Origin: Acidimicrobiaceae bacterium
Lineage (GTDB): Bacteria; Actinomycetota; Acidimicrobiia; Acidimicrobiales; Aldehydirespiratoraceae
Direction of reading: 5' to 3'
DNA length: 64,000 nucleotides
Assembly (NCBI GenBank): GCA_026708645.1
Contig: JAPOUM010000026.1
Span: 513 to 64,512, forward strand
Positions 1 to 60,172 of the stretch are shown here, in pieces; the stretch's first letter is position 1, and each line of letters opens with the position of its first letter. The notes under the pieces are model-generated. The model did no database searches and was not told the DNA's origin. It worked only from the letters and a program-made list of their open reading frames with translations. The translations under genes and the position numbers were made by a program.

Positions 1-55
1 ACCAGAACCGACAACACAACAAACAACGCACCAAACCAGACGCGAACCGCAGCCA

Positions 56-197
56 CACAAGACCGAGCCGCGGCCCGCAGCCGGGACCAGACCAAAGCCA
101 GCGACCCCGCGCATGGGCGGCAGCTCTTTGGCGCGGGCCATGTGGACGCCGTGGCTGGACCAGAGCCAGAGCTCGCGACCCTGCCTTGTGGTGACGG
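56..197. repeat. Left arm of an imperfect inverted repeat (partner at 4863-4946)
   Basis: 162-197 matches the reverse complement of 4863-4898 at 34/36 nt. 56-100 matches the reverse complement of 4899-4946 with small gaps. The left arm carries an extra ~61 bp (101-161). Confidence 0.7.
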
Positions 198-390
198 GTG
201 GCAGCTGGTTCGCCTCGGGCGGGTCGAGCACTCAAAGCCAAAGCCAGCGACCCCGCCTTGTGGTGACCGCCCCGGGTTCAGCGAACACGCAGCCACCAGA
301 TCTACCCCGACCATGCAGCCGCCTGGCACTGCGGTCGCCGTCGGCGGGTTCAGCGAACACGCAGCCACCACAGATCCACCCCGACACCAC
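91..390. repeat. Degenerate tandem array with a ~72-bp period (about 4 units)
   Basis: Core GCGACCC(C/T)GCC occurs at ~101, ~175 and ~247. GCCTTGTGGTGAC occurs at 183 and 255. GGGTTCAGCGAACACGCAGCCACCA occurs at 274-298 and 346-370 (exactly 72 bp apart). Confidence 0.7.
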
Positions 391-516
391 AACGGCATCA
401 CGCGCCAACAACCTCACGATAACCGACACCTAGCTGTCGGCTCGCGCGAGTTTGCGGCTCGTGTTACGGGTGCTCGTTGCGGGGCGTGGCACGGCTGGGT
501 TCGTAGGCTTTGAGTC

Positions 517-1014
517 ATGCGAGAAAATGCGAATGGTTCCATGGGCACTGCTTCGGAAGCAGCCTCAGCGGACGCAGCCCTGGCGGCAGCCGACGAGCGG
601 TCGCTGAAGGCCTGGGTCGACCGGTTCTCGGGCCATGTCGCCGATCTTCGCTACGACGAAGCGGCGGCCATGATGGACCCTTGCGTCAACAGCTTCAGCA
701 CCTGGACCGACGTGGTGGTCGGCATCGAGCAGTTCGTCAACAGCCAGTGGCGCAACGTCTGGCACACCATGACCGATTTCGTGCTGGTCACCGACAAGAT
801 GCACGCCCGGACCTCTCCGGACAGGCTGATGGCGTCGCTGATGGTGACTTGGACCTCGACGGGCTACAGCGCCGACGGCGAGCCCTTCGACCGGCCCGGA
901 CGCTGCTCGTTCGTCGTGGTCAGAGACTCGCTCAACGACGAGTGGCGGGGCGTGCAGGCCCACTTCTCGCTGATGCGCGGCGTCCCCCAGCAATCCTTCG
1001 GAACCCGCTGCTGA
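517..1014 (+). CDS. SnoaL-like / NTF2-fold (DUF4440-like) protein
   Basis: 165-aa ORF with high third-position GC. Its size and sequence pattern are typical of small NTF2-like/SnoaL polyketide-cyclase-fold proteins (family call from memory). Confidence 0.55.
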   Translation: MRENANGSMGTASEAASADAALAAADERSLKAWVDRFSGHVADLRYDEAAAMMDPCVNSFSTWTDVVVGIEQFVNSQWRNVWHTMTDFVLVTDKMHARTSPDRLMASLMVTWTSTGYSADGEPFDRPGRCSFVVVRDSLNDEWRGVQAHFSLMRGVPQQSFGTRC

Positions 1015-1092
1015 CGAGCTCAGCTGACAGGGCTCAGCTGACAGGGCTCACCGGCGGACGCCCGCCGTCAGGCGCGCCCATTTGCCGTTTCC

Positions 1093-1308
1093 GGCTGGTC
1101 GGGTCGCCGCCCGCCTCGAATTCCCGGCGGATTAGCAGCGCCGATCTGGCGCCGCTGTTGGGTTGGCCGACCGGCTCGCCGCCCGCCCCAAAGTTCCGAC
1201 GGCCGACGCCGTTCGTTCCGGGGATGTCTCACTCACGGCCGACCGGCTCGCCGCCCGCCCCAAAGTTTCGACCCTTCACTTGGTCACGACACGTTGAGCT
1301 TGGATGAA
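1093..1308. repeat. Three 72-bp-spaced units with a conserved ~31-nt core
   Basis: GGCCGACCGGCTCGCCGCCCGCCCCAAAGTT is perfect at 1165-1195 and 1237-1267. A degenerate copy (GGCTGGTCGGGTCGCCGCCCGCCTCGAATTC) starts at 1093. The remainder of each unit is unrelated. A tandem 14-mer GCTCAGCTGACAGG x2 lies at 1017-1044. Confidence 0.75.
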
Positions 1309-1354
1309 AGCGCAGTCTCCGGGTGCTCTCTCGCGCTTTCTAAGATGATTCACG

Positions 1355-3076
1355 GTGTTGACGAAGCTCACTGTCCGCAACTTCAAGCGCTTCTCTTCAG
1401 AGGAGATCGAACTCGACAGCCCGGTCGTTTTCGTCGGTCCGAACAACTCCGGTAAGACTTGCGCGATGCAGGCTCTTGCTCTGTGGGGAGTCGGGCTGAG
1501 GCGCTGGAACGAGCGGCACGCCGGCAAGACGGCCCCCGAGAAGCGACCGGGCGTGACCGTCGGTCGACGGGACTTGGTAGCAGCCCCTGTGCCCAGTGCG
1601 AGGCTGCTGTGGCGAGGGTTGTCAGTGCGCAAGCAGGCGGTCGCCGACGGAGCGCGCGGCACCTCCAATGTCCGCATGGACATCATCGTCGAGGGAGTGG
1701 GAGAGCATGGCGAATGGAAGTGCGGATTGGAGTTCGACTACGCCAATGAGGAGTCGTTCTACTGCCGGCCGCTTCGATCAGGAGAAAGCTCGACGGCTGA
1801 TCGTATGCCCATACCCGACGACGCCGCCCGTGTGACGCTGGCGTACCTGCCGCCGATGTCTGGTTTGGCCGCTACCGAGACCAGGCTCGAACACGGCGCC
1901 GTCAGCGTGCGGGTGGGCGAGGGCCGCACTGCGGAGGTGCTGCGCAATCTTTGTCATCGAGTCTGCGAGGAGAGCCCCGAGGACTGGGAGCGCCTCGTCG
2001 GGCGAGTCGAGCACCTTTTCGGAGTGGAGTTGAATCGACCGCGCCACATTGTCGAGCGCGGCGAGATCGATATGACCTACCGAGAGCGCGGCATAACCCT
2101 GGATCTGTCCAGCAGCGGACGCGGCCTGCAGCAGACGATGCTGTTGCTGGCGTATCTGTCCGTCAATCGCGGATCGGTTCTTCTGCTCGATGAACCCGAC
2201 GCCCACCTTGAGACGCTGCGCCAGCGACAGACGTATCGGACGATCACCGAGTCGGCGTCGGAGAGCGGCAGCCAAGTCATCGCAGCCAGCCACTCGGAGG
2301 TGGTGCTGAGCGAAGCCGCGAGCAAGGACGCTGTTGTGGCATTCGTGGGACGGCCCCACCGCATAGAAGACCGCTTCAGTCAAGTGCTGAAGTCTCTCAA
2401 ACAGATCAGTTTCGATCATTATCTTCAGGCGGAGCAGACCGGCTGGGTCCTGTATCTGGAGGGTTCTACCGATCTGGCTGTTCTGCAGGCGTTCGCCCGG
2501 CGCCTCGACCATGCGCCCGCGCTGTCAGCGTTGGACAAGCCGTTCGTTCACTACGTGGGCAACCAGCCCAACGAGGCCCGGTCGCATTTTTACGGTCTGC
2601 GTGAGGCGTTGCCTTCGCTTCGGGGCGTGGCACTGTTCGACCGGATGGAGACGGGCGCATCTGACACCGGCGACTTGGAGCATCTGACGTGGCGGCGCCG
2701 CGAGATCGAGAACTACTTGTGTACGGAGGCGACGCTCATGGCGTTCGCTGAGCGGCCCGAGGCCGGTCATGGACCGCTCGACCTGCTCGCACGCCGTCAG
2801 CACATGACCGAAGCGATCGAGCGGATCGCTTCGGCTATGCGGACCCTGGGACGGGGGTCGCCTTGGAGCGCGGACGCCAAGGTCAGCGACGACTTCCTCA
2901 AGCCGCTGTTCGGCGAGTATTTCAGCCGCGTCGGTCTGCCCAGCCTCTTAGCGAAGAAGAGCTTCCATGAGTTGGCTGATTTGGTGCCCGACGACGAGAT
3001 GGATCCTGAGATCACCGAGAAGCTCGATGCCATAGCAGCAGTAGCTTCGCCGGAAAGCCCGGTTGCGGAGTTCTGA
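1355..3076 (+). CDS. OLD-family-like ABC/AAA ATPase fused to a Toprim/DUF4435-like C-terminal domain (PARIS/Gabija-GajA-like architecture)
   Basis: The N-terminus LTKLTVRNFKRF...FVGPNNSGKT is a Walker A. LLLDEPDAHLE is a Walker B, followed by ASHSE. The C-terminal half has YLEGSTDLAVL, ALFDRME and REIENYL, resembling Toprim/DUF4435 signatures. Confidence 0.6.
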   Translation: MLTKLTVRNFKRFSSEEIELDSPVVFVGPNNSGKTCAMQALALWGVGLRRWNERHAGKTAPEKRPGVTVGRRDLVAAPVPSARLLWRGLSVRKQAVADGARGTSNVRMDIIVEGVGEHGEWKCGLEFDYANEESFYCRPLRSGESSTADRMPIPDDAARVTLAYLPPMSGLAATETRLEHGAVSVRVGEGRTAEVLRNLCHRVCEESPEDWERLVGRVEHLFGVELNRPRHIVERGEIDMTYRERGITLDLSSSGRGLQQTMLLLAYLSVNRGSVLLLDEPDAHLETLRQRQTYRTITESASESGSQVIAASHSEVVLSEAASKDAVVAFVGRPHRIEDRFSQVLKSLKQISFDHYLQAEQTGWVLYLEGSTDLAVLQAFARRLDHAPALSALDKPFVHYVGNQPNEARSHFYGLREALPSLRGVALFDRMETGASDTGDLEHLTWRRREIENYLCTEATLMAFAERPEAGHGPLDLLARRQHMTEAIERIASAMRTLGRGSPWSADAKVSDDFLKPLFGEYFSRVGLPSLLAKKSFHELADLVPDDEMDPEITEKLDAIAAVASPESPVAEF

Positions 3077-3190
3077 GCCGCCACTCAGCGATCCCGCAGT
3101 CTGCGCCTGACGCTGCACAACGAGATAACGGTTCTGTCATCCCGGCCGGGATCTGAAAGTTATAACATAGATAGTCTGAACTGATGATCT

Positions 3191-3571
3191 GTGAAGTTGG
3201 CTCGCTTCTCCGACCGGCTACATGCCCCGAGCGGGAGACGCGAATGGGCCTGCTCTTTGAGTCGCTGGTGGTCGCGACCTGTGTGTTTATGCAGCCGCCT
3301 GCAAGGCCGACGTCATCACTGTCGCACTAGCTATGGCGACGAGATCGACGCGATCGTCGAACGACGCGACGGGGCTTGGATGGCCGTCGAGGTCGAGTTG
3401 AGTCCGTCGAGAGCGGACGAAGCCGCTCAATCTTTGCGTAAAGCGTGCGCCACGATCGACGCCGGCGAGCGCGGCGAGACGGTGAAGAAGGTCGTGGTGA
3501 CCGCCACCGGATACGGCTACGAACGAGACGACGGCATCTCGGTGGTGCCCATCACCGCTCTAGGCCCCTGA
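3191..3571 (+). pseudogene. C-terminal remnant of an AAA_14/DUF4143 ATP-binding protein (N-terminus missing, frameshifted)
   Basis: The tail YGDEIDAIVERRDGAWMAVEVELS... matches the DUF4143 end. The preceding GLLFESLVV segment (from 3244) is in a different frame. No ATPase domain lies upstream. Confidence 0.55.
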
Positions 3572-3664
3572 CTTCCGCGGCCCGGCGCCCAGGAAGAGCG
3601 CGCCGACCCGTCAATGTTCAGAGTCGAGTGGGAATCCGCCCCTGACTTCCGCGGCCCGGCGCCC
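3565..3664. repeat. 26-bp direct repeat pair (3565-3590 and 3639-3664), 74 bp apart
   Basis: CCCCTGACTTCCGCGGCCCGGCGCCC occurs twice. It is ~70% identical to the CCCCAAAGTTCCGACGGCCGACGCC core at 1185. Confidence 0.7.
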
Positions 3665-3727
3665 TTACAGAGAGTGCCAGGCGATCGAACGACTTGGGCA
3701 GAGGAGGCTGGGTATTAAATCGCTTGC

Positions 3728-4696
3728 TCAGTCTCGTAGCTGCTGCTGGGAGCGCTGGTGGGCGAGTGTGGCGATCGCCACGTCTTGGAGAGCTACGCCC
3801 TGGGATTCGAACAGCACTATGCCGCTGCCGGGGCCTGGGCCGGCCTGTGCAGCCGGGAGCGAAACCGGGATCGTGACCGTGCCTGCGATCACTTCGGTGA
3901 GGTCGACCAGACTGGCCCAGTCGAAGCTTCCCTCCGCCGCGGCGTGTATCAGGTCTCCGGCTTCGCTGCGGGCGCCTTCTTCGCTGTCGCTCACCACGAG
4001 CGCCGCGCGGGCCACGGTCGTGGTGTCGACCTCTTGGCGGGTGGCTTTGGTCGAGCCCACAGCGCACACTAGAGCGGACGCCTCCAGACGCTCGCCGTCG
4101 AACAACGGGGTGCGGCTCGAGGTCACGGTGACCACCACTCGGGCGCCTTCCACCGCTTCGTCGGCGCCGGCCGTCGCCCTTGCCGGTATGCCCCGTTGCT
4201 GGGCCCAGGCGGCGACCTGCTCGGCCTTGTGCAGGTCGCGCCCCCAGACTCGCAGGTCGGTCAGCGGCATCTCCTGGGCGAGTGCCTGCAGGTGAGGCCG
4301 GCTCTGTCTGCCCGTGCCGAGCACTGCTGCGGTGGTGGCGTCCGACGGCGCCAGATGCCTCACGGCCAGCGCGCTGGCGGCTGCGGTGCGGATGGCGGTG
4401 AGGCCTGCCCCGTCGAAGGTGGCGACCAGCCCGGCCTCGGGTTTGAAGAGACCCACAAGAAAGGAGAAACCGCCGGGGTGGGTGATGTACAGCTTGCCGC
4501 CGGCCACGCCGTGCCGGGGCCATGAGGCGGCCATGGCGCTGCCCATCAGCCCTCCGGCCTCGGCCCTCACCCGCAGCGTGGTGGCCGCCTCGGCGGCGGC
4601 GAGGTCGCGCCAAGCCTGCTCCAGCCAGTCGGTGACAGTCGCCAGATCGCACAGTTCCGCGACCTGGTTCTCGGTGAAGTGAGGCACAGCGCTCAT
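3728..4696 (-). CDS. Ornithine cyclodeaminase / mu-crystallin family protein
   Basis: 322-aa ORF with a Rossmann-like LGTGRQ segment and the overall family pattern. High GC3. Confidence 0.7.
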   Translation of the reverse strand: MSAVPHFTENQVAELCDLATVTDWLEQAWRDLAAAEAATTLRVRAEAGGLMGSAMAASWPRHGVAGGKLYITHPGGFSFLVGLFKPEAGLVATFDGAGLTAIRTAAASALAVRHLAPSDATTAAVLGTGRQSRPHLQALAQEMPLTDLRVWGRDLHKAEQVAAWAQQRGIPARATAGADEAVEGARVVVTVTSSRTPLFDGERLEASALVCAVGSTKATRQEVDTTTVARAALVVSDSEEGARSEAGDLIHAAAEGSFDWASLVDLTEVIAGTVTIPVSLPAAQAGPGPGSGIVLFESQGVALQDVAIATLAHQRSQQQLRD

Positions 4697-4703
4697 GTCG
4701 GCT

Positions 4704-4812
4704 CCTCGGACGGCCAGTAGCCAAGCACTCTAAGTTTCGCGTGCAAACTGGATGTGTCTTCGCGCATAGCGACTACCTCGGACGGCATGTAGCCAGGCAC
4801 TCTGAGTTCTCG
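4704..4812. repeat. 37-bp direct repeat pair, 72 bp apart
   Basis: CCTCGGACGGCCAGTAGCCAAGCACTCTAAGTTTCGC starts at 4704 and CCTCGGACGGCATGTAGCCAGGCACTCTGAGTTCTCG at 4776. Both share the ...CTAAGTTTCG end with the 1165/1237 core. Confidence 0.7.
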
Positions 4813-4862
4813 TCGCTTTTCGCGTGGCGGATCGAAAGTAGGAGCAGCGTGTCCGCTCTACA

Positions 4863-4946
4863 GGCCGTCACCACAGGGCAGGGTCACGAGCTCTGGCTCT
4901 GGTCTGGCCGCGCGGCTGCGGGTCGCGGCTTGCGGCTTGGTCTTGT
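4863..4946. repeat. Right arm of the inverted repeat (partner at 56-197)
   Basis: See the left arm. The reverse complement reads ACAAGACCAAGCCGCAAGCCGCGACCCGCAGCC...AGAGCCAGAGCTCGTGACCCTGCCCTGTGGTGACGG. Confidence 0.7.
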
Positions 4947-4949
4947 CTA

Positions 4950-6780
4950 GCTGTAGTGGTCACAGAGGTTGGGAGCAGCGTGTAGGGGGTGGGCCTCCTG
5001 TGTGAGTGTGGGGTTGCAACAGCAAACGACATGAACACAGTAGGCTTGATGCCGCATGCGAATGCAAGCCTGATGTCTGGCAGCGGGTGATGATGTTGCA
5101 GCTGGCTGGCGAACTCTAACGTGCGTTAGAGTTATGCGAGCCGACAAAATAAACTGGTATTGAATTGAGCCGCACAAGATAGCCGCACAAAATAATAGTA
5201 GATATTACTGACCACGGGTTCTCTCCTTTTTATTGACGTGATACTGTCCCGAGGCCCCATCGTCCTTGCGATCGCCCCTTCTTCGGCGACTCATGTGTCA
5301 CGTCGCTACCGATGCCGCGGAACTGTTTACGTGCGGGGCGAACTCTAAGCTTCGGCGAACTCTAGTGGTGGTTGCGAGTGGGGGCGGGGTAGATGCTGGG
5401 CACTGAGTGCCAGAGGTGGCGCGGCCCACACCACTGGGCAGCGCTTTACGCGGGTGCGCGCCTCCACATCCGCCCATCGACAGCTCGTGGGCGTAACGCC
5501 ACGACACTCGCGGCGCGCCTTTGGGAAGTAATCACTACTATTACTAACCGCCCTTCAAGGCAGGGTCGATCACAACCTGCTCGAAGCGGCCATCTGATCC
5601 CGGCGGCTGGAGGGCCTCGTCGGCTGCCTCTATCCTGAACTGCTGACAGACTTGATCGGCTCGGCTTGGCGCGACCGCAGCTTGACCGCTCTTCCCATTC
5701 AGGGGCCTGACATCTTGCGAAGCCCAGATCCGATGGCGTGCGCGCAGGCTCTGCACCGAGTAAGTAATAATTACTATTACTATATCATCAACGCTGAGGT
5801 ATTACCTTTGCCGGGCAGCCGCGGTCGAGCAGATCGCGAAGCGGAACGACAGCCGGGCGGCGACGCTGAGGCCTTGCTTCTGCCGGTCAGCCATGAAAGT
5901 AATAATTTTTATCACTTTCTACGGACAGCGCCGAATAATGGCTCTTCTCATTTGGGGTGGAGCAGGGCTGACGGCCATCCTCGCCGGGGATGTGAGATCC
6001 CCGGCGAATCTGAGCTGTGCGGCAAGCGAGATCTGGAGGATGGCGAACTCCACCGGTCGGATGCCGGCAGTGGCACTGGTCATCATGACTTATCTCTTGC
6101 AGCCACTCGGTGAAGTCCGCCGTGCACTTCAGGGATCAAGCCGCGAGACAGAGGCACAACTGCTCACTTGCATCCAACGCTGAAGTTCGACGTGAACTTC
6201 AGATCACCGCGGCCTTGCCCGATGTCGAGTTCGTTCAACTGCTCTCCAGTTATGAAGCTTTGTGCGCGACCACTGAATAGCCGCAGTCGCACTCGTGCGG
6301 TATCGTCACGCGAGCTGCCAGCAATAAACTAGATGCATGTTGCCCGCACGGGCAGGTTAGAACAATAATGAATACTATTTACCGCGGATCTACTGTTCCC
6401 TACTGACGGGCTGCTGCACCAATCCAGCATATAAGAATGATTATTACATTCTAGTTTCGCTTGCCTCAGCGGGCAAATCGGGCAAGGAGAATTCCGAGTA
6501 CAAGCCGCAATTAGTAGTAGTAATAACAAATTAATAGTAGTAATAACAGTTGTGTTCTACCAGTGCTGCCAGCCCTGTCGCCCTCGCAACGCAGCCAACG
6601 ATGCAAGGGCGCGCCACAGGCAGGCTGCCGTGCGGAGGGACTAGCCGATACAGTCATCATTGTTATTACGTTCGACAGAGCGACCTGCCCGCCCCGCCTG
6701 CTCAGCCCATCCTCGACACCTTGACCACGCACTACGGCGACCGGATCACCAGCCACAACCAATGAGAACCACCATCAGAC
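4950..6780. other. ORF-poor, motif-dense 1.8-kb tract with AT-rich AGTAAT/ATTACT islands
   Basis: No ORF longer than 153 aa and none with a recognisable family. AT islands lie at 5188-5209, 5525-5546, 5759-5787, 5895-5915, 6322-6452, 6508-6548 and 6660-6668 within GC-rich DNA. Confidence 0.6.
5111..5132. promoter_or_regulatory. Perfect 10-bp inverted repeat AACTCTAACG-TG-CGTTAGAGTT (operator-like)
   Basis: Read directly from the sequence. Related half-sites GCGAACTCTAAG (5337-5348) and GCGAACTCTAG (5354-5364) lie nearby. Confidence 0.4.
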
Positions 6781-6809
6781 ACACAAAAAATCGCACATGC
6801 CTGCCATTC

Positions 6810-7040
6810 CAGAGGCTCCCTGTGAGCCCGGCTTCTGGGCGACCTCGTCGGCTGGGCCGGCATCGACAGAGCCGCACACTCCCGACACCCCGATCATTTT
6901 CGAGGCTCTCTGTGAGCCCGGCTTCTGAGCGACACTCTCGACCGCGGCGAGCGCAACGAGATGTGGTGCTCCCGACGCTCCTAGTGAGCCCGGATTCTGA
7001 GCGACTGGCGCACTCCTCGTGAGCCCGGATTCTGTGCCCA
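6810..7040 (+). repeat. Four copies of the purB start segment GTGAGCCCGG(C/A)TTCTG
   Basis: Copies start at about 6820, 6911, 6984 and 7019 (the real purB start). The three upstream copies are in one frame (ORF 6660-7022), whose TGA overlaps the purB GTG as GTGA. Confidence 0.75.
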
Positions 7041-8449
7041 ACGTGTTGGCGAGTCGTTATGCCGGCACGGCCATGCGTGCCTTGTGGGCGCCGGAGCATC
7101 GTGTCGTGCTCGAGCGCCGCCTGTGGCTGGCGGTCCTGGAGGCGCAACGCCTGCTGGGTCTCGATGTCGAGCAGCCTGTGGCAGACGCCTACCGAGATGT
7201 GCTCGAGCAGGTCGACCTCGAGTCGATAGCCGCCCGTGAAGCAGTGACGCGCCATGACGTGAAAGCTCGCATCGACGAGTTCTGCGCGTTGGCGGGCCAT
7301 GAGGCGATCCATCTGGGCATGACCTCACGCGACGTCACCGAGAACACCGAACAGCTCCTGATCGTCGAATCTCTGAAAGTGGTCCGAGACGGTCTGGTGG
7401 CGACGCTGGCTCGTCTGGCCGACCTGGCCGCAACCCATGCCGAGACCCTGATGGTGGCGCGCACCCACAATGTCGCCGCGCAGGCCACCACCCTGGGGAA
7501 GCGCTTCGCCGACGCGGCAGCCGAAACCCTGGTCGGCTACCAGCGGATCACGGAGCTCTTGCAGCGCTATCGGTTGCGCGGCATCAAGGGCGCGGTCGGA
7601 ACACAGCAGGACCAGCTCGATCTGCTCGGGTCCGTGGAAGCCGTCGATTCCTTGGAGCGGATCGTGGCCGAGCGTCTCGGTTGGGGAGGCGTGCTCGAGG
7701 CTTCGGGCCAGGTTTATCCGCGTTCGTTGGATCTGGATGTGGTGACGGCGCTGCTGCAGGCGGTCTCCGGTGTCGGGTCGCTGGCAACGACTCTGCGGCT
7801 CATGGCCGGGCACGGGCTCGTGTCGGAAGGCTTCCGTGACGGCCAGGTCGGCTCGTCGGTCATGCCCCACAAAGTCAACGCGCGCTCCTGCGAACGCATC
7901 GCTGCGCTGCGGGCAGTGCTGAACGGGCATGTCGCAGTCGCGGCCTCGTTGGCGGGGACCCAATGGAACGAGGGCGACGTGAGCTGTTCAGCGGCTCGCC
8001 GGGTGATGCTGCCCGATGCGTTCTGCGCGGCTGACGGCATTTTGCACACCGCGCTGGGCGTGCTAGCCGAACTGCAGATCAACGAGGCCGCTCTGACATC
8101 AGAGTTCGAGCGTTATGAGCCTCTGCTGATCACGACGCGCCTGCTCGGGGCTTTGACCCGGGCAGGGATGGGCCGCGAAGCCGCCCATGCAGCGCTCTCC
8201 GGACCCGCGCGGCGGGCTGCGCAGCACGCCTGCGGCGAAGAGTCCGCCGGCTTGGAGTCGCTGATCGACGAACTTGCCGAGGATCCGCTGGTGCCGCTGG
8301 ATCGATCCGATCTGGCCGGCTTGACGGCGGACCGGCACCGCCTGGCGGGAACCGCGGCCCAGCAGGTGGAGCGTGTCGTCGCCGCGGCACATGAAGTGAC
8401 GCGCCATCATCCGCAGGCCGCGCAACAGAAAGCCGAGGTCCGCCTGTGA
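7019..8449 (+). CDS. purB: Adenylosuccinate lyase
   Basis: 476 aa. Contains the fumarate-lyase superfamily signature region GSSVMPHKVNA. The N-terminal NVLASRY and the length are typical of PurB. Confidence 0.9.
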   Translation: MSPDSVPNVLASRYAGTAMRALWAPEHRVVLERRLWLAVLEAQRLLGLDVEQPVADAYRDVLEQVDLESIAAREAVTRHDVKARIDEFCALAGHEAIHLGMTSRDVTENTEQLLIVESLKVVRDGLVATLARLADLAATHAETLMVARTHNVAAQATTLGKRFADAAAETLVGYQRITELLQRYRLRGIKGAVGTQQDQLDLLGSVEAVDSLERIVAERLGWGGVLEASGQVYPRSLDLDVVTALLQAVSGVGSLATTLRLMAGHGLVSEGFRDGQVGSSVMPHKVNARSCERIAALRAVLNGHVAVAASLAGTQWNEGDVSCSAARRVMLPDAFCAADGILHTALGVLAELQINEAALTSEFERYEPLLITTRLLGALTRAGMGREAAHAALSGPARRAAQHACGEESAGLESLIDELAEDPLVPLDRSDLAGLTADRHRLAGTAAQQVERVVAAAHEVTRHHPQAAQQKAEVRL

Positions 8450-9451: not shown

Positions 9452-11305
9452 TCAGCTCTTGAGGCGGGACACGTCGCGCACAGCGCCCTTGTCGGCTGAC
9501 GTGGCCATGGCGGCGTAAGCCTGCAAAGCGGCCGACACTTCACGTCGGCGCGCCCGCGGCTTCCAGCCGTCGCTGCGGGTTTCGTGTTCGTCTCGGCGGC
9601 GTTGCAGCTCGGCTTCGTCCACCCGCAGATTGACTGTGCGTTCGGGAATGTCGATGTCGATGATGTCGCCGTCGCGGATCAGCGCTATCGCCCCGCCCTC
9701 GGCCGCTTCAGGGGATGCGTGACCGATAGAGAGCCCCGAGGTCCCTCCCGAGAAGCGTCCGTCGGTGAACAGCGCGCACTGCTTGCCCAGCCCTCGTGAC
9801 TTGATGTACGAAGTGGGATAGAGCATCTCTTGCATGCCCGGGCCGCCGCGCGGGCCTTCATAGCGCACGATCACCACATCGCCGGGTTGTATCCCGTTGT
9901 CGGTGTCGAGAATCCCGTCGCACGCCTCTTCTTGGCTCTCGAAAACTCTCGCAGGACCCGAGAACCGCATGATCGAAGAGTCGACGCCGGCGGTCTTGAC
10001 GATGCAGCCGTCGGCGGCGATGTTGCCGTAGAGCACTGCGAGCCCGCCGTCGGCGTTGTACGGGTCGGCTGCTGAGCGGATGCAGCCGTTGCTGCGGTCG
10101 GTGTCGAGCGTCGGCCATCTGCTCGACTGGCTGAACGGCTGCTGCGTGGCAATGCCCGCGGGCCCCGCCTTGAAGAACTCGACCACCTCGGCGGAAGGGT
10201 CGCGCCTCACGTCCCAGACCTGCAAGGCGTCGGCCAGCGTGTCCGCATGCACGGTGCTCACCGAAGTGTCGAGCAGTCCGCCGCGGTCGAGCTCTCCGAG
10301 GATGCCCATGATCCCCCCGGCGCGGTGCACGTCCTCGACATGGAACTCCTCGGTGGAGGGCGCCACTTTGCAGATGTTGGGGGTGCTGCGGCTGAGCCGG
10401 TCGATGTCGGCCATCGTGAAGTCCACCTGCCCCTCCCGGGCGGCGGCCAGGATGTGCAGCACCGTGTTGGTGGAGCCGCCCATGGCGATGTCGAGGCGCA
10501 TGGCGTTCTCGAAAGCGGCTTTGGTGGCGATGCGGCGCGGCAGCACCGACTCGTCGTCCTTCTCGTAGTGGCGCCGAGCCAGGTCGACGACCCGCCGCCC
10601 GGCCTCGCGGAACAGTTCCCGCCGGTCCGAGTGCGTGGCCAGGGTGGTGCCGTTGCCGGGCAGCGACAGCCCCAGCGCCTCGGTGAGGCAGTTCATGGAG
10701 TTGGCGGTGAACATCCCCGAGCACGATCCGCAGGTGGGGCACGCGGCGCGTTCCATTTCCAGCAAGTCCTCGTCGCTCACCGTCGGGTCGCCTGCGGAGA
10801 TCATCGGGTTGATCAAGTCGAGCTTCACGCTGACCCCGGCCAGCTTGGTCTTGCCGGCTTCCATCGGCCCGCCCGACACGAACACGGTCGGCACGTTGAG
10901 CCGCATCGCCGCCATCAGCATGCCCGGAGTGATCTTGTCGCAGTTGGAGATGCAGACCAGCGCGTCGGCGCAGTGGGCGTTGACCATGTACTCGACCGAG
11001 TCGGCTATCAAGTCGCGGCTCGGCAGGCTGTAGAGCATCCCGCTGTGGCCCATGGCGATGCCGTCGTCGACTGCGATGGTGTTGAATTCTTTGGCCACGC
11101 CCCCCGCGTCGGTTATCTCGTCGGCCACCAGCTTGCCGAGATCGCGCAGATGCACGTGACCGGGCACGAACTGGGTGAACGAGTTGGCCACGGCCACGAT
11201 CGGCTTGTCGAAGTCGTCGTCGGTCATGCCGGTGGCGCGCCACAGGGCGCGCGCCCCGGCCATGTTGCGGCCCTGGGTGGTGGTGTGGGATCGAAGCTGC
11301 GGCAT
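9452..11305 (-). CDS. ilvD: Dihydroxy-acid dehydratase
   Basis: 617 aa. The N-terminus [22 protein letters not shown] and the conserved cysteines (CDKITPG, CPTCGSC) are typical of IlvD. Confidence 0.92.
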
Positions 11306-11404: not shown

Positions 11405-11842
11405 ATGAGCACAAACTACGTTCCATCAGATGATTTCCTGAAGTATTTAGCGAACACGGCTCGGGAGTTGGCTGAGATGGGCAGACGCGCGGAGCGTGCT
11501 ATGGAAAAGCGCCACGCCGCGGTAGTCGCCTCTCGGGAAGACTCGAGGCGGGCCAGAGAGGCTCTGCTCGAGGCTGCGTCGGGGCTCCATGTTATGGCAT
11601 CGAGCCTCAACGACTTCAACAAGACGGCTTATCAGGCCACTGAGCAGGCCACGGCGTCGCTGGTGGAATTCTTCGAGGAATACAAGAAGGACATGAGACG
11701 CCTGGCAGAGTTGAGCGACATGATGGCGGCCTATCTGTCGGCGCCGCCTGACGACGGCCTTGAATCCGGAGACGAGCCGTCCGACCCGCCGCTAGGAGAC
11801 GAGCCGTCCGACCTGTTGGCAGAAGACGACCCGACCGAGTAG
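11405..11842 (+). CDS. Hypothetical helical protein with an acidic GDEPSD-repeat tail
   Basis: 145-aa ORF preceded by an AT-rich stretch (11360-11404). The 5' end has lower GC. No family recognised. Confidence 0.45.
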
Positions 11843-16708: not shown

Positions 16709-18772
16709 ATGACGATTATTGAGCGTGAAGTTGCAGATGGGAGCGTTGATCCTGGCAGACCTCTGACGCTGGTTGATGAGCTGGTGTTGACTCTTCTCAA
16801 TGAGGAATCCGGCTATTTCCGTCAGGTGCCGATCTGGAACCTCAACTGCGCCGTTATCGGCGGGGCTCTGGCTGAGTTGTCGTTGCGGGGCCGCATCGAC
16901 ACTGATCTCGACTCGTTGATCTTCGTGGACGGCGCACCTACCGGCGACCCGGCGCTTGATCGGCTGCTTGAAAAGATCGGAGCTTCGACCGGGCAGCACA
17001 ACGCTCAATATTGGATCGAGAAGCTTGTGCCGGAGGCCGAGCCCATTATCGATATGACCCTTGAGCGTCTGACCGAGATGAACATTCTGCGGCATCACGA
17101 AGGCGAATTTTGGTCGCTGTCGAAGGTCGTCTGGGGCGCAGCAGACGGATCCGCTGACGGTGCCGACGATCAGGCCAGTAACGAGTTCGTCAAGACTCGT
17201 ATCAGTAGAGCTATCTTCACCGATGAGATCCCGTCGCCTGTGGACGTGATCATCGTTTGTATCACCGATGTCTGTGATGTGCTGCGTTTCATCTTTGAGC
17301 TTGACGAGGCAGCTGAGCAGAGGGTGGTCGAAATCTGCAAGATGGATCTGATCGGGCGTGCCATTGCCGACGCGGTTCGCGAGAATTTCGTCACTGCGCA
17401 AGTTATTCCCACCGCGATCACCAAGCAGATTCCCTCTGTGAAGCTGATGGACATGATTCGCAGTCCAAACGCTCGCAACGGGAATATGCCGGCGTTCTTC
17501 GCTGAATGTTACAAAAAATACGGCCCTGTCTTCAGGCTCAAGCAGCCGTTTCAGCAGCCTTTTACCTGCGTAGCCGGTCCCGAAGTCAATGCGTGGGTTC
17601 ACCGCCACGGTCGATTGTATCTGTCATCAAGGCATGCTCTTGATGATTTCCTAAAAGCTGTCGGTGCAAGAAATTTTGTGAACACGCTTGACGGTGTTGA
17701 TCACTTCAAGTGTCGCAAGTCCTTTCAACAGTCTTTTTCGCGCTCCAGATTAGTGGAGCGATCTGATGAAATGCTCAATTATGGTCTCGACAGTATCTCT
17801 AGTCTGGAAATCGGTAGTGAGATTCCGTTAGTAGAACTTGGATATCGGGTATCCAACTCGCAGATGTCGCCGTTGTTGCTTGGTGTTGAAACTCAGGACG
17901 TCTTTGATGATGTATCTAAATTTATATTGCGAATTCTAATGACGGATTTTGCTGGCTACCTTCCCAAGCTCATGAATCATACTCCTGGAATGCGGCGCCG
18001 CAAGAAACTCTTCAATGAGCTTGTGGATCAGGTCTTTGCTAGTCATACAGCTGCTCAACGAGCCGGTTGCCCCAGAGATTACATTGATGATCTGGTGAGC
18101 TTCAATGCCAGCGACCCTCAGCTGATGCCCCAAGCCAACATGCGCTTTGCAATCATCAACGCCCTGATAAATTCCATGTACACTGGGCAGCAGATGTCGA
18201 CCTTAATGTACTTACTGCTGTCAAACCCGGAAGTTTATCAGCAAGTCACTGCCGAGGCTGATGCAGTATTCGGTGAAGGCGGCAAAGTTGATTTTGAAGT
18301 TTTCACTGGCCCGGCAACTGATGTAACTCAACGGGTAGTCACTGAAAATTTGCGCTTATATCCTACAATATTCGGATCATTCCGCCATGCGATAAACAAC
18401 TGCTTGATCGGTGGATATCAAATGTCGGTGGGAGAAAGACTTTGGATTCTGTCAGCAGTTACTCACTATCTAGACGATCAATTTCCAGAGCCAATGAAGT
18501 TTGACATTGACAGGTACAAGTCTCCGCGTAATGAACATCGCGGCACCGGATATGCCCCGTTTGGACTTGATACTCATACCTGTCTTGGCCAACGTTTAGT
18601 TTCTCTGCAATTGGCAATCAACATTCTGATGTTGTCACACTACTTTGAAATGGAACTGGTAAACAAGGATTCCGATATCAAGATGACTGTTTTGCCTTTG
18701 CCGGGCTTGGCAGCGAGAAGGAAAATCAAAGCCCGCTTCGTCGCGCGCCGCCACGAAGTAACCAAGCCCTGA
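16709..18772 (+). CDS. GPP34/GOLPH3-family domain fused to a cytochrome P450 domain
   Basis: The N-terminal ~210 aa (LTLVDELVLTLLNEESGYF...GGALAELSLRGRID) look like bacterial GPP34 proteins. The C-terminal ~470 aa have ExxR (ENLRLYP) and a Cys-ligand loop PFGLDTHTCLGQRL. GC is far lower than the genome average. Confidence 0.7.
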   Translation: MTIIEREVADGSVDPGRPLTLVDELVLTLLNEESGYFRQVPIWNLNCAVIGGALAELSLRGRIDTDLDSLIFVDGAPTGDPALDRLLEKIGASTGQHNAQYWIEKLVPEAEPIIDMTLERLTEMNILRHHEGEFWSLSKVVWGAADGSADGADDQASNEFVKTRISRAIFTDEIPSPVDVIIVCITDVCDVLRFIFELDEAAEQRVVEICKMDLIGRAIADAVRENFVTAQVIPTAITKQIPSVKLMDMIRSPNARNGNMPAFFAECYKKYGPVFRLKQPFQQPFTCVAGPEVNAWVHRHGRLYLSSRHALDDFLKAVGARNFVNTLDGVDHFKCRKSFQQSFSRSRLVERSDEMLNYGLDSISSLEIGSEIPLVELGYRVSNSQMSPLLLGVETQDVFDDVSKFILRILMTDFAGYLPKLMNHTPGMRRRKKLFNELVDQVFASHTAAQRAGCPRDYIDDLVSFNASDPQLMPQANMRFAIINALINSMYTGQQMSTLMYLLLSNPEVYQQVTAEADAVFGEGGKVDFEVFTGPATDVTQRVVTENLRLYPTIFGSFRHAINNCLIGGYQMSVGERLWILSAVTHYLDDQFPEPMKFDIDRYKSPRNEHRGTGYAPFGLDTHTCLGQRLVSLQLAINILMLSHYFEMELVNKDSDIKMTVLPLPGLAARRKIKARFVARRHEVTKP

Positions 18773-59794: not shown

Positions 59795-59940
59795 CCGCGT
59801 TGATGAGGGGGGCGTTGATGAGGGGGGCGTCGATGAGGTCAAGCGGGTGAGTCTCTGCTCGATGGCCACGGTGTCGTTCGGCAGCGCCTTCCAGTCGCGT
59901 CGATGGAAGTCAAGCGGGAGTCAAGCGGGTGAGTCTCTGC
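59795..59940. repeat. Short direct repeats (GCGTTGATGAGGGGG x2-3; GTCAAGCGGGTGAGTCTCTGC x2)
   Basis: Read directly from the sequence. The second motif starts at about 59838 and 59916. Confidence 0.6.
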
Positions 59941-60172
59941 GGTGCTGCTGCGGCTAGCCTCGCAGTTCCGATGTCAGCCGATCAGCCGCTGCGGCGCGAC
60001 CCGCTCCCGAAGCACGGTTTGATCAGGCACTGTTGATCCGACCCGGTTGATCCGATTCGGCCCGACCGACAACAAGACAACGTCGACACAAGACAGCGAC
60101 ACAAGACAGCACAGACAACAAGGCAACGCCGGCAACAACACAACAAGGCAACACAGAGACCCAGGAGGTTCC

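What the first reader, a model, noticed from the sequence alone, without database searches (positions are those of the whole stretch)
91..4812. A related ~30-nt core recurs in 72-74-bp-spaced pairs or triplets in every intergenic gap of the first 5 kb
Five independent places show the same architecture of conserved core plus unrelated filler, with almost identical spacing.
- 101/175/247 (GCGACCC core).
- 274/346 (a perfect 25-mer).
- 1093/1165/1237 (a perfect 31-mer, GGCCGACCGGCTCGCCGCCCGCCCCAAAGTT).
- 3565/3639 (a perfect 26-mer, 74 bp apart).
- 4704/4776 (a 37-mer).

The cores are related to each other. GCTCGC(C)G(A)CCC(G/T)CC is shared by the 165 and 1173 copies. CCCC-A-GTTCCG-C-GGCC-G-CGCC is shared by the 1185 and 3565 copies. 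...CTAAGTTTCG ends are shared by the 1260 and 4728 copies.

So each gene of the SnoaL / ATPase-Toprim / DUF4143 / cyclodeaminase cassette is separated by phased copies of one element family. 72 bp is about 7 helical turns, and also 24 codons. That would fit cooperative binding of a protein on one DNA face, or a templated duplication process. I know of no described element with this layout.
Basis: seen in the sequence. Interest (0 to 1): 0.75.

Follow-up and report, generated by a model that had tools for sequence, protein, structure and literature searches.

The report
Unrelated short repeats at 72-base pitch
In a sponge-associated actinobacterium, many gaps between genes hold a local ~36-base sequence repeated two to six times exactly ~72 bases apart with unrelated filler between, a CRISPR-like layout with a different repeat at every site that fits no described element.

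Summary
The spacing is real and far beyond chance. In the 64-kb window, seven direct-repeat pairs sit at offset 72 and one at 74, all in the first 7 kb; no other offset has more than two.

The cores are not one family. Cores from different gaps are no more alike than shuffled sequence and share no motif.

Each array repeats a local sequence of about 36 nt (range 27-41). Often this is a gene's start or stop region, or the 3'-terminal motif of a multi-copy DUF222-HNH gene. The filler is unique and about 36 nt.

The geometry is genome-wide in this species. Four other regions of its 2.48-Mb contig, all around DUF222-HNH paralogs, hold about 20 more arrays at 71-74 nt. The 57 kb of conserved-order genome in the window holds none.

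The arrays lie in DNA that is not syntenic with relatives. They are identical in unit number across eight assemblies and differ only by point changes.

No Rfam hit, no stable fold, no cas gene nearby and no match for any filler was found.

My best guess, with low confidence, is a length-measuring insertion with target duplication, as in off-target CRISPR spacer integration. The variable repeat length at a constant pitch argues against it.

The parts
89..124 (+). A1: partial copy of the A repeat; core 92-110 is identical to A3
161..195 (+). A2: copy of the 3'-terminal motif of the DUF222-HNH gene (..DPALW, stop); 72 nt before A3
233..267 (+). A3: same motif, followed by the flank seen in the paralogs (CGCCC)
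273..311 (+). B1: 26 nt identical to B2, then 13 more after a 2-nt indel
   Evidence: The whole B array is homologous to an array with spacing 69 in relative L090.
345..385 (+). B2, 72 nt after B1
1093..1128 (+). C1: degenerate copy (75%) of the C repeat
   Evidence: D1
1165..1200 (+). C2: 36-nt repeat followed by 36-nt unique filler
1237..1272 (+). C3: 97% identical to C2; lies 83 nt upstream of the ATPase GTG
3564..3590 (+). D1: includes the last codons and stop of the DUF4143 remnant plus 18 nt downstream
3638..3664 (+). D2: perfect copy of D1, 74 nt downstream
4704..4739 (-). E1: region -9 to -44 upstream of the cyclodeaminase ATG (includes GAGGAG); itself a decayed copy of the gene's first 36 nt
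4776..4812 (-). E2: 88% copy of E1, 72 nt further upstream, followed by its own ATG
4693..4767 (-). Upstream reading frame of 24 codons created by the E duplication; its TGA overlaps the cyclodeaminase ATG (ATGA)
4865..4912 (-). Inverted copy of A2 with 11 nt of its left flank (90%): terminal motif of a second, decayed DUF222-HNH element
   Evidence: (I1)
5791..5820 (+). F1: 80% copy of F2
   Evidence: (D7)
5863..5892 (+). F2: the 30 nt immediately upstream of the ATG of a 96-codon reading frame (5893-6183)
6812..7040 (+). G1-G4: four copies of the purB start region (GTGAGCCCGGMTTCTG) at 6812, 6902, 6974 and 7009, spaced 90, 72 and 35 nt; G4 is the real purB start (GTG 7019). A decayed tandem array with indels.
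   Evidence: The 12-codon frame 6984-7022 ends in a GTGA overlap with the purB start.
517..1014 (+).
1355..3076 (+). AAA_15/AAA_21 ATPase (AriA/GajA/OLD-like), part of a two-gene module with DUF4143 inserted between the SnoaL-like and cyclodeaminase genes
3191..3571 (+). Remnant of a DUF4143 (PDC-S01-like) gene with an internal deletion of about 890 nt
3728..4696 (-). Ornithine cyclodeaminase/mu-crystallin family gene, a core gene of the clade
7019..8449 (+). purB (adenylosuccinate lyase). In all relatives it directly follows purA; here that link is broken at the start codon.

Best explanation
The arrays are not copies of one element. Each is a local sequence X of about 36 nt that has been duplicated, sometimes repeatedly, at a fixed pitch of 72 nt (71-74). 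A unique filler Y of about 36 nt lies between the copies. X is often a gene's start or stop region, or the terminal motif of a DUF222-HNH gene.

I read the arrays as scars of a length-measuring process that inserts a short piece of DNA and duplicates the target around it. It acts, or is tolerated, in the flexible DNA around DUF222-HNH genes of this genome.

The only known machine with this geometry is the CRISPR adaptation integrase Cas1-Cas2. It duplicates a repeat-length target on both sides of a spacer-length insert, and it can do so outside CRISPR loci. So the most likely mechanism is ectopic integration of that type, by Cas1-Cas2 or by an unknown enzyme with similar geometry. Later insertions at the same site would give arrays of three to six units.

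Copies survive where they do no harm. Next to a start codon they create short upstream reading frames whose stop overlaps the gene's start, which preserves translational coupling.

- Shown: the geometry, its statistical excess, the lack of sequence relatedness, the locations, and the stability between strains.
- Inferred: the insertion-duplication mechanism and the enzyme.
For: - Sharp excess at one pitch. The window has 7 pairs at offset 72 and 1 at 74, against 0-2 at every other offset. In 150 kb of this species, 26 of 38 scored repeat segments with offsets 60-89 fall at 71-74.
- Layout X-Y-X(-Y-X...). Left boundaries are sharp, and fillers are unrelated even where X is perfect: C 36+36, L095 13759 36+36, B, D.
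- X clusters at half the pitch, about 36-39 nt in most arrays. This is the geometry of actinobacterial CRISPR arrays with 36-nt repeats and 35-41-nt spacers (my own knowledge of the M. tuberculosis DR locus).
- The repeat sequence differs at every site, as expected if whatever lay at the target is duplicated.
- C1 is a degenerate terminal repeat.
- The spacer between the SnoaL-like and ATPase genes is 338 nt here against 117 nt in the closest relative with the same gene order. That fits insertions rather than replacement.
- Off-target integration by Cas1-Cas2 that creates new arrays is documented in E. coli (Nivala et al. 2018, as cited in bioRxiv 10.1101/148544 and PMC7054753).
- No fold, Rfam family or shared motif suggests a sequence-specific function.
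Against: - The pitch is constant while X is not. Perfect or near-perfect X measure 26 (39-41 allowing an indel), 27, 31, 36, 36 and 39 nt at pitches of 72-74. An integrase ruler should fix X.
- In D, all mismatches of a notional 36-nt X fall in its last 9 positions. By my calculation the probability of that under uniform drift is about 3e-4.
- No cas gene or canonical CRISPR array lies in the window or in the four other regions examined. The whole genome could not be searched.
- No filler matches anything: the loci held, phages, plasmids, or three viral-contig scans.
- Clustering around DUF222-HNH genes is unexplained. About 25 arrays lie in roughly 85 kb near them, and none in the 57 kb of core genome.
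- In L095 11759 (pitch 62) the filler begins with the native flank seen in a paralog, so there the filler is not foreign.
- Two arrays are nearly whole-unit tandem repeats: 56 of 71 and 52 of 71 nt match.
- Relatives have filler-free tandem duplications of 35-38 nt at gene junctions.
- The B array is homologous, filler included, to an array in another species.
- There is no unit gain or loss between strains.
- This many ectopic events would be unprecedented.
Confidence: 0.3

Rival explanations
1. Local copying by replication or repair, with no foreign insert. A patch of sequence is re-copied one fixed step (about 72 nt) away by template switching, or whole 72-nt units are duplicated in tandem. 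Afterwards only the half under selection (gene start or stop region) stays alike, helped by gene conversion between the copies, while the neutral half diverges.
For: - X is native gene-boundary sequence in D, E, F, G and A.
- The pitch is constant whatever the length of X.
- Some arrays are nearly full-unit tandem repeats at the same pitch (L095 18805, L097 18468).
- Multi-unit arrays show block duplications of 143-152 nt.
- Relatives carry junction duplications of 35, 38, 68, 69 and 73 nt.
- In L095 11759 the filler starts with native flank.
- B is conserved as a whole array between species, yet its two copies are more alike within a genome than between genomes. That is the signature of concerted evolution.
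Against: - Simple tandem duplication followed by drift cannot give a perfect 36-nt X next to a filler at chance-level identity.
- No known replication or repair process measures about 72 nt.
- It does not explain why X centres on half the pitch.
- It does not explain why arrays cluster near DUF222-HNH genes.
Confidence: 0.25
2. By-product or component of the multi-copy DUF222-HNH elements. Either the nuclease makes paired, staggered breaks at a fixed distance near its own gene and repair leaves duplications, or the short arrays that follow each HNH gene are functional parts of the element (end-binding sites or guide-like RNAs).
For: - All five DUF222-HNH paralogs of this genome end in the same 21-nt motif.
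- All five have a 62-74-nt-pitch array within about 250 nt downstream.
- In three of the five, the terminal motif itself is the repeated unit, with a different filler at each locus.
- All arrays found lie within about 9 kb of such a gene. The 57 kb without one has none.
- An inverted copy of the motif lies at 4867-4887.
- The family is amplified: at least 5 copies here and at least 18 in the closest relative.
Against: - Sampling outside the window was made only around HNH genes, so the association is partly built in.
- The closest relative's island with two HNH genes (L094) has no 72-nt intergenic arrays; there the end motif recurs about 300 nt apart.
- Most arrays (C-G, trpD upstream, others) do not contain the HNH motif.
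- No biochemical function is known for DUF222-HNH proteins. The only RNA-guided-nuclease hit is a weak HNH-domain match (29 bits against a cut-off of 175).
Confidence: 0.15
3. MIRU-like mobile mini-elements of about 72 nt that insert at gene boundaries and keep translational coupling.
For: - The organism is an actinobacterium, and the unit size is in the MIRU range.
- E and G create short frames whose stops overlap the gene start by 4 nt.
- L090 shows chains of such mini-frames.
- MIRUs are described as inserting at start codons with a -4 overlap (PMC12548453).
Against: - A mobile family must share sequence, and these units do not.
- X is the local gene's own sequence.
- Pitches of 72 and 74 at sites away from start codons (C, D, A) have no coupling logic.
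- There is no copy-number variation between strains.
Confidence: 0.07
4. Paired protein-binding sites (operators, iterons or partition sites) placed seven helical turns apart for cooperative binding.
For: 72-74 bp is close to seven turns. The sites are intergenic, and several lie upstream of genes.
Against: - No motif is shared between arrays, so each would need its own protein. No regulator genes lie nearby.
- Several X are coding ends or start regions.
- Differences between strains fall inside X as freely as outside it.
- Helical phasing alone would also give peaks near 63 and 84.
Confidence: 0.04
5. Chance matches in GC-rich, low-complexity DNA, or an assembly artefact.
For: The genome is 65% G+C and the A region is CA-rich.
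Against: - The offset spectrum has a single peak.
- There are perfect 26-36-mers.
- The sequence is identical in short-read, MEGAHIT, Logan and long-read assemblies from different samples.
Confidence: 0.01

Closest known systems
CRISPR arrays and 'neo-CRISPR' loci made by off-target Cas1-Cas2 spacer integration (Nivala, Shipman & Church 2018)
   Same: - Repeats of about 36 nt alternate with unique fillers of about 36 nt.
- The pitch varies by only 1-2 nt, and arrays begin and end with a repeat.
- One array has a degenerate end repeat.
- For ectopic events, the repeat is whatever sequence lay at the target, so it differs from site to site.
   Different: - No cas genes or canonical array were seen.
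- Repeat length is not fixed.
- Most arrays have only 2 units.
- There is no spacer turnover between strains and no protospacer match.
- There are dozens of sites per 150 kb, clustered around DUF222-HNH genes.
- Some units are conserved over their whole length.
Mycobacterial interspersed repetitive units (MIRUs)
   Same: - Actinobacterial, intergenic repeats at operon junctions, with units of tens of bases in tandem.
- Short reading frames overlap the downstream start codon by 4 nt (E and G here).
   Different: - MIRUs are one dispersed sequence family with whole-unit conservation and copy-number variation between strains.
- Here every site has its own sequence, only half of each unit is conserved, and copy number is fixed in all assemblies seen.
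REP13E12-type repeated elements (DUF222-HNH genes) of mycobacteria
   Same: The same protein family (DUF222 + HNH) is present in many copies per genome. Here each copy has a conserved 21-nt 3' end.
   Different: To my knowledge, no 72-nt-pitch arrays have been described next to REP13E12. Only the A array and its inverted copy are explained by this motif.

Membership tests
Canonical CRISPR array | Direct repeats of 23-47 nt separated by unique spacers of similar, nearly constant length | tested here: met
   C is 36+36 nt in three units. The pitch is 71-74 in 26 segments. Most arrays have only 2 units.
Canonical CRISPR array | One repeat sequence shared by all units and arrays of a system | tested here: not met
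   Cores of different arrays are unrelated.
Canonical CRISPR array | cas genes and a leader next to the array | tested here: not met
   No Cas family appears among called genes in the first ~33 kb of the window or in L095-L098. The rest of the window and the rest of the genome were not searchable.
Canonical CRISPR array | Repeat matches a described CRISPR direct-repeat family | tested here: not met
   No Rfam match, even at E up to 5 in positions 1-8000.
Canonical CRISPR array | Spacer gain or loss between strains | tested here: not met
   Unit numbers are the same in eight assemblies, including a strain about 1% diverged.
Off-target Cas1-Cas2 integration (neo-CRISPR) | Duplication of a fixed, repeat-length target around a spacer-length insert | tested here: inconclusive
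   X centres on 36-39 nt but ranges from 27 to 41 at a constant pitch.
Off-target Cas1-Cas2 integration (neo-CRISPR) | A Cas1-Cas2 system with matching repeat and spacer lengths in the same genome | not testable with these tools
   Only about 150 kb of the 2.48-Mb contig could be fetched.
Off-target Cas1-Cas2 integration (neo-CRISPR) | Insert derived from foreign or distant DNA | tested here: inconclusive
   No match for any filler. One filler at pitch 62 begins with native flank.
MIRU | Dispersed family with shared unit sequence | tested here: not met
MIRU | Short frame whose stop overlaps the downstream start by 4 nt | tested here: met
   Met for E (ATGA) and G3/G4 (GTGA). Not applicable to A-D.
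MIRU | Tandem copy-number variation between strains | tested here: not met
REP/BIME/MITE | Shared sequence with a palindromic stem-loop or terminal inverted repeats | tested here: not met
   Fold z-scores range from -1.7 to +1.3. There are no local inverted repeats and no family.
Integron cassette array (attC sites) | attC sites with imperfect inverted repeats that fold as single strands; an integrase nearby | tested here: not met
   No significant DNA or RNA structure. No integrase among neighbouring genes.
Iterons or operator arrays | A common binding motif repeated in phase | tested here: not met
   No motif is shared between arrays beyond what shuffles give.
Terminal motif of the DUF222-HNH element (A array only) | The same motif at the 3' end of every paralog | tested here: met
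   GCGACCCCGCCCTGTGGTGAC, with 0-4 substitutions, lies at the end of all five paralogs, with extra copies in the window and in L095.

The most novel reading that the evidence does not exclude
This genome has a so far undescribed DNA-writing activity, possibly tied to its amplified DUF222-HNH elements. It cuts at a fixed distance and pastes pieces of about 36 nt with duplication of a 36-nt target, producing CRISPR-geometry mini-arrays at many unrelated sites. In one version, the arrays directly downstream of each HNH gene share a terminal repeat and carry locus-specific fillers, and they serve as guide-like RNAs for the nuclease. Either way, this would be a natural system that generates proto-CRISPR arrays without a canonical CRISPR locus.
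Probability: 0.15. Interest if true: 0.9.

Novelty: new variant of a known kind. Interest (0 to 1): 0.7.

Why it matters
- **Origin of CRISPR arrays.** If the arrays are scars of an integrase acting outside a CRISPR locus, this genome would be the richest natural record of such events. It would make the question of how new CRISPR arrays arise directly testable.
- **An unknown ruler.** If they come from another process that measures 72 nt, that process is unknown. It is a source of new upstream reading frames, duplicated translation start sites and gene-boundary variation in a reduced symbiont genome.
- **Annotation.** These sites will be reported as low-confidence CRISPRs by array finders, and some inflate or extend gene calls. 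One example is the open frame running from the HNH gene through window position 513.

Tried and rejected
- **Rfam.** Gathering threshold on the window and E up to 5 on positions 1-8000: only tRNAs.
- **Folding.** RNA folding of five arrays on both strands gave no significant structure.
- **Promoter and terminator scan.** Nothing coincides with the arrays.
- **Relatedness of cores.** Pairwise alignment against shuffles, shared k-mers and nhmmer were all negative.
- **Register alignment.** Aligning all units at the start of X shows no conserved column.
- **Filler origin.** blastn-short against all held loci, phage and plasmid collections, and three exact scans of viral contigs found nothing.
- **Metagenome scans.** The C repeat gave no hit. 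The HNH end motif gave one unrelated coding match.
- **Empty-site search.** The closest ATPase, DUF4143 and HNH relatives (L092, L094, L097) have flanks too diverged to align. The look-up of the nearest HNH relative, P0241, failed.
- **Ideas rejected.** tRNA-derived units (no tRNA-like hit near the arrays). Coding repeats (pitches of 71, 73 and 74 are not multiples of 3). Integron attC sites. Transposon ends for arrays other than A.
- **Paper not available.** Nivala et al. 2018 could not be read. It is cited through papers that describe it and from my own knowledge.

Full report
**1. What is there**

I read window 1-7200 and looked for repeats in three ways.
- The repeat finder reports direct-repeat families with start-to-start spacing of 72 or 74 nt at 92/166/238, 161/233, 273/345, 1093/1165/1237, 3564/3638, 4704/4776 and 5791/5863.
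- An offset scan of the whole 64-kb window finds 5 hits at offset 72 and 1 at 74 under a strict threshold, and 7 and 1 under a looser one. Every other offset from 15 to 300 has 0-2 hits.
- The remaining 57 kb of the window has none, even at 21 of 30 matches.

Tandem Repeats Finder misses the arrays because only about half of each unit is repeated.

I label the arrays A to G:
- A: 89/161/233
- B: 273/345
- C: 1093/1165/1237
- D: 3564/3638
- E: 4704/4776
- F: 5791/5863
- G: 6812/6902/6974/7009

In-register comparison shows sharp left boundaries and fillers at chance-level identity, even where the repeat is perfect.

**2. It is real sequence**

- The ATPase gene of the window is carried by seven contigs from different samples and assemblers. 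These are 99.97-100% identical to the window, with the same arrays.
- A 2.48-Mb long-read contig of the same species is 99% identical. It has every array with the same number of units.
- Differences between the two strains are single-base changes, and they fall inside the repeats as well as outside (positions 283, 3585, 4807, 6990, 6994).
- So the arrays are neither artefacts nor rapidly turning over.

**3. The cores are not one family**

- All pairwise local alignments between representatives of the seven arrays, on both strands, fall within the range of shuffled sequences.
- No 7-, 8- or 10-mer, with mismatches allowed, is shared by more arrays than in shuffles.
- nhmmer with each array finds only itself in 1.6 Mb of related DNA. 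The one exception is an inverted copy of A at 4858-4911.
- Units aligned in register show no conserved column.
- Rfam has no match, and none of ten folds is significantly stable.
- What the arrays share is a length.

**4. Organism and context**

The purB gene places the window in sponge-associated Acidimicrobiia, in the clade labelled Candidatus Aldehydirespirator. The closest species representative has 79% PurB identity.

Downstream of purB, gene order is conserved in 24 relatives. Upstream it is not.
- In all relatives purA directly precedes purB, and in the closest one the purA stop overlaps the purB GTG. In this species that link is broken exactly at the purB start, where the G copies sit.
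- In relative L090 the SnoaL-like gene and the cyclodeaminase gene are convergent and overlap by 4 nt.
- In the window, 2.7 kb lies between those two genes. It holds the C array, an AriA/GajA/OLD-like ATPase, a DUF4143 gene with an internal deletion of about 890 nt, and the D array.
- Upstream of the SnoaL-like gene lies a DUF222-HNH gene. Its CA-rich tail holds A and B.

All arrays therefore lie in inserted or rearranged DNA, not between the genes of one cassette.

**5. What is being repeated**

| Array | What X is |
|---|---|
| A | The last codons and stop (..DPALW, stop) of the DUF222-HNH gene |
| D | The last codons and stop of the DUF4143 remnant plus 18 nt downstream; the same gene end is seen in L092 |
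| E | The 36 nt upstream of the cyclodeaminase ATG, including GAGGAG |
| F | The 30 nt before the ATG of a 96-codon frame |
| G | Copies of the purB start |

- The A motif, GCGACCCCGCCCTGTGGTGAC, closes all five paralogs of that gene in this genome. An inverted copy lies at 4867-4887.
- The E duplication places a second ATG 71 nt upstream. This creates a 24-codon frame whose TGA overlaps the gene's ATG.
- In G, the 12-codon frame from G3 ends in a GTGA overlap with the purB GTG. G also has indels and spacings of 90, 72 and 35, so it looks like a decayed tandem array. Its 72 may be a coincidence.
- Relatives show kindred junction duplications:
  - three 35-nt tandem copies of the cyclodeaminase start in L090, each ending in ATGA;
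  - three 38-nt copies of the purA end in L010;
  - X-Y-X arrays with spacings of 68, 69 and 73 in L090 and 73 in L031.
- The whole B array, filler included, is homologous to the 69-nt-pitch array upstream of an amidohydrolase gene in L090 (score 45 against 17.5 +/- 2.8 in shuffles).

**6. The geometry is genome-wide in this species**

The DUF222-HNH family is amplified: four further copies on the same 2.48-Mb contig, and at least 18 in the closest relative. I fetched 10 kb on each side of those four paralogs and repeated the scans.

They hold about 20 more arrays with pitches of 71-74, each with its own repeat. Examples:
- L095 13759: perfect 36-nt repeat, 36-nt filler.
- L097 4372: perfect 31-mer, pitch 73, upstream of trpD.
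- L097 11915: 39 nt, pitch 72, across the HNH stop.
- L096 11805: 36 nt, pitch 72.
- L095 18759-19010: four units at 72, 71 and 74.
- L097 18422-18830: six units at 71-73.
- L097 13494-13860: pitches 73 and 74.

Over the 150 kb of this species examined, 26 of 38 scored repeat segments with offsets 60-89 lie at 71-74. Most of the rest are coding repeats inside HNH genes.

All five HNH paralogs have an array within about 250 nt of their stop. In three of them the terminal motif itself is the repeated unit, with a different filler at each locus.

The island of the closest relative, which has two HNH genes (L094), has no 72-nt intergenic arrays.

**7. Measuring the parts**

- Allowing for single indels, X is 35 (A), 39-41 (B), 36 (C), 27 or 41 (D), 36-37 (E) and 30 (F).
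- In the other loci X is 31-33, 32, 32-33, 33, 36, 36, 36-38, 37, 37, 37, 39, 39 and 42.
- Two arrays match over 52-56 of 71 nt.
- X therefore centres on half the pitch, but it is more variable than the pitch itself.

**8. How it most likely arose**

A perfect X next to an unrelated Y cannot come from tandem duplication followed by drift. The structure L-X-Y-X-Z is what an insertion of Y with duplication of target X produces, and repeated events at one site give longer arrays.

The only known enzyme that inserts about 30-40 bp and duplicates about 28-37 bp is Cas1-Cas2. It is known to do this at non-CRISPR sites in E. coli, creating new arrays (Nivala et al. 2018, cited). Repeats of 36 nt with spacers of 35-41 nt are a known actinobacterial CRISPR geometry (my own knowledge). 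I therefore put ectopic integration of this type first, at about 0.3.

It has real problems:
- X is not fixed.
- No cas genes were seen locally.
- No filler has a source.
- One filler is native.
- Some units are conserved throughout.
- Filler-free 35-38-nt tandems exist in relatives.
- The events cluster around HNH genes.

The rivals, with rough weights:
- Copying one fixed step away by replication or repair, with concerted evolution of the selected half: about 0.25.
- An activity or architecture of the DUF222-HNH elements themselves: about 0.15.
- A MIRU-like mobile unit: about 0.07. MIRUs are described as inserting at start codons with a -4 overlap (PMC12548453), but they are a sequence family.
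- Phased binding sites: about 0.04.
- Chance or artefact: about 0.01.

The rest is unassigned. Whatever the origin, copies next to start codons have been kept in forms that preserve stop-start overlap. That points to a selective filter rather than to a designed function.

**9. Comparison with known systems, and verdict**

The arrays share geometry with CRISPR. They fail its defining tests: one repeat per system, cas genes nearby, spacer turnover, and a known repeat family. They share position and coupling logic with MIRUs at two sites, but they are not a family. They are not REP, MITE, attC or iteron-like.

Only the A array and the long inverted repeat I1 are explained by a known kind of thing, the conserved end of a multi-copy gene element related to mycobacterial REP13E12.

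I know of no description of dozens of arrays, each with its own sequence, at a 72-nt pitch in one genome. I could not search the whole genome or find empty sites, so the mechanism remains inferred.

I file it as a new variant of a known kind (CRISPR-geometry arrays or ectopic integration scars). There is a real chance that it is something new.

Noticed in passing
window 5193-5543: A segment of about 320 nt (5210-5533), flanked by 22-nt AT-rich inverted repeats (5193-5214 and 5522-5543), is absent from the same-species long-read contig. That contig has a TATTAC/TAGTAA-type microsatellite there instead. Related AT-rich boxes (TAATAGTAGTAATAACA-like) recur at 5526, 5762, 5897, 6509-6548 and 6660 in an otherwise 65% G+C genome.
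   Followed up: partly
window 6509-6548 and 11770-11838: Two short tandem repeats vary between assemblies of the same species. The 20-nt unit at 6509-6548 has one copy in L089. The 27-nt unit at 11770-11838 differs between contigs L001 and L002.
   Followed up: partly
window 16709-18772: A single 687-codon gene combines a GPP34 (Golgi phosphoprotein 3-like) domain with a cytochrome P450 domain. GPP34 has been reported as a family linked to sponge symbiosis in Actinobacteriota (PMC11706023).
   Followed up: no
window 1-112 and 60060-60160: There are stretches almost free of T and poor in G (ACAAC/CAAGAC-type). One forms the tail after the HNH domain. The other is the leader just upstream of the ribosome-binding site of a short-chain dehydrogenase gene. 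Similar CA-rich tails follow the other DUF222-HNH paralogs.
   Followed up: partly
L003 300-1370 (upstream of the window), L097 10804-11121, L094 1476-1874: The DUF222-HNH genes carry an internal block of Cys/Ser/Thr-rich coding repeats between the DUF222 and HNH parts. Periods are 66/69/135, or 72/138/144 nt. The family has at least 5 copies in this genome and at least 18 in the closest relative.
   Followed up: partly
window 3163-3180; L094 7700-7790: Upstream of the DUF4143 gene, the closest relative has four direct copies of a CTGAAAGTTCTAACAT box about 24 nt apart, which look operator-like. The window keeps one copy.
   Followed up: no
window 1010-1050: A 14-nt unit, GCTGACAGGGCTCA, is repeated three times immediately after the stop of the SnoaL-like gene. 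It overlaps that stop, at the left edge of the inserted ATPase module.
   Followed up: no
window 59797-59930: GCGTTGATGAGGGGG occurs three times in tandem, and GTCAAGCGGGTGAGTCTCTGC occurs twice 82 nt apart. Both lie in the gap before the CA-rich leader of the dehydrogenase gene.
   Followed up: no
L096 13617-14100: The ZnuA-like zinc-binding protein gene of the same genome contains a long 60-nt coding repeat, seen as GTCGTGGTC-type units on the plus strand of the locus (the gene is on the minus strand).
   Followed up: no
L011, L013-L015, L017, L020 about 9870-9990: Several relatives carry a conserved insert of about 110 nt between purA and purB (…GAGGCCGAGCG…CGAGCGAGGCCGTGGCCCGAGCGGCCCGTGAGCG…). 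It looks like a small dispersed intergenic element.
   Followed up: no
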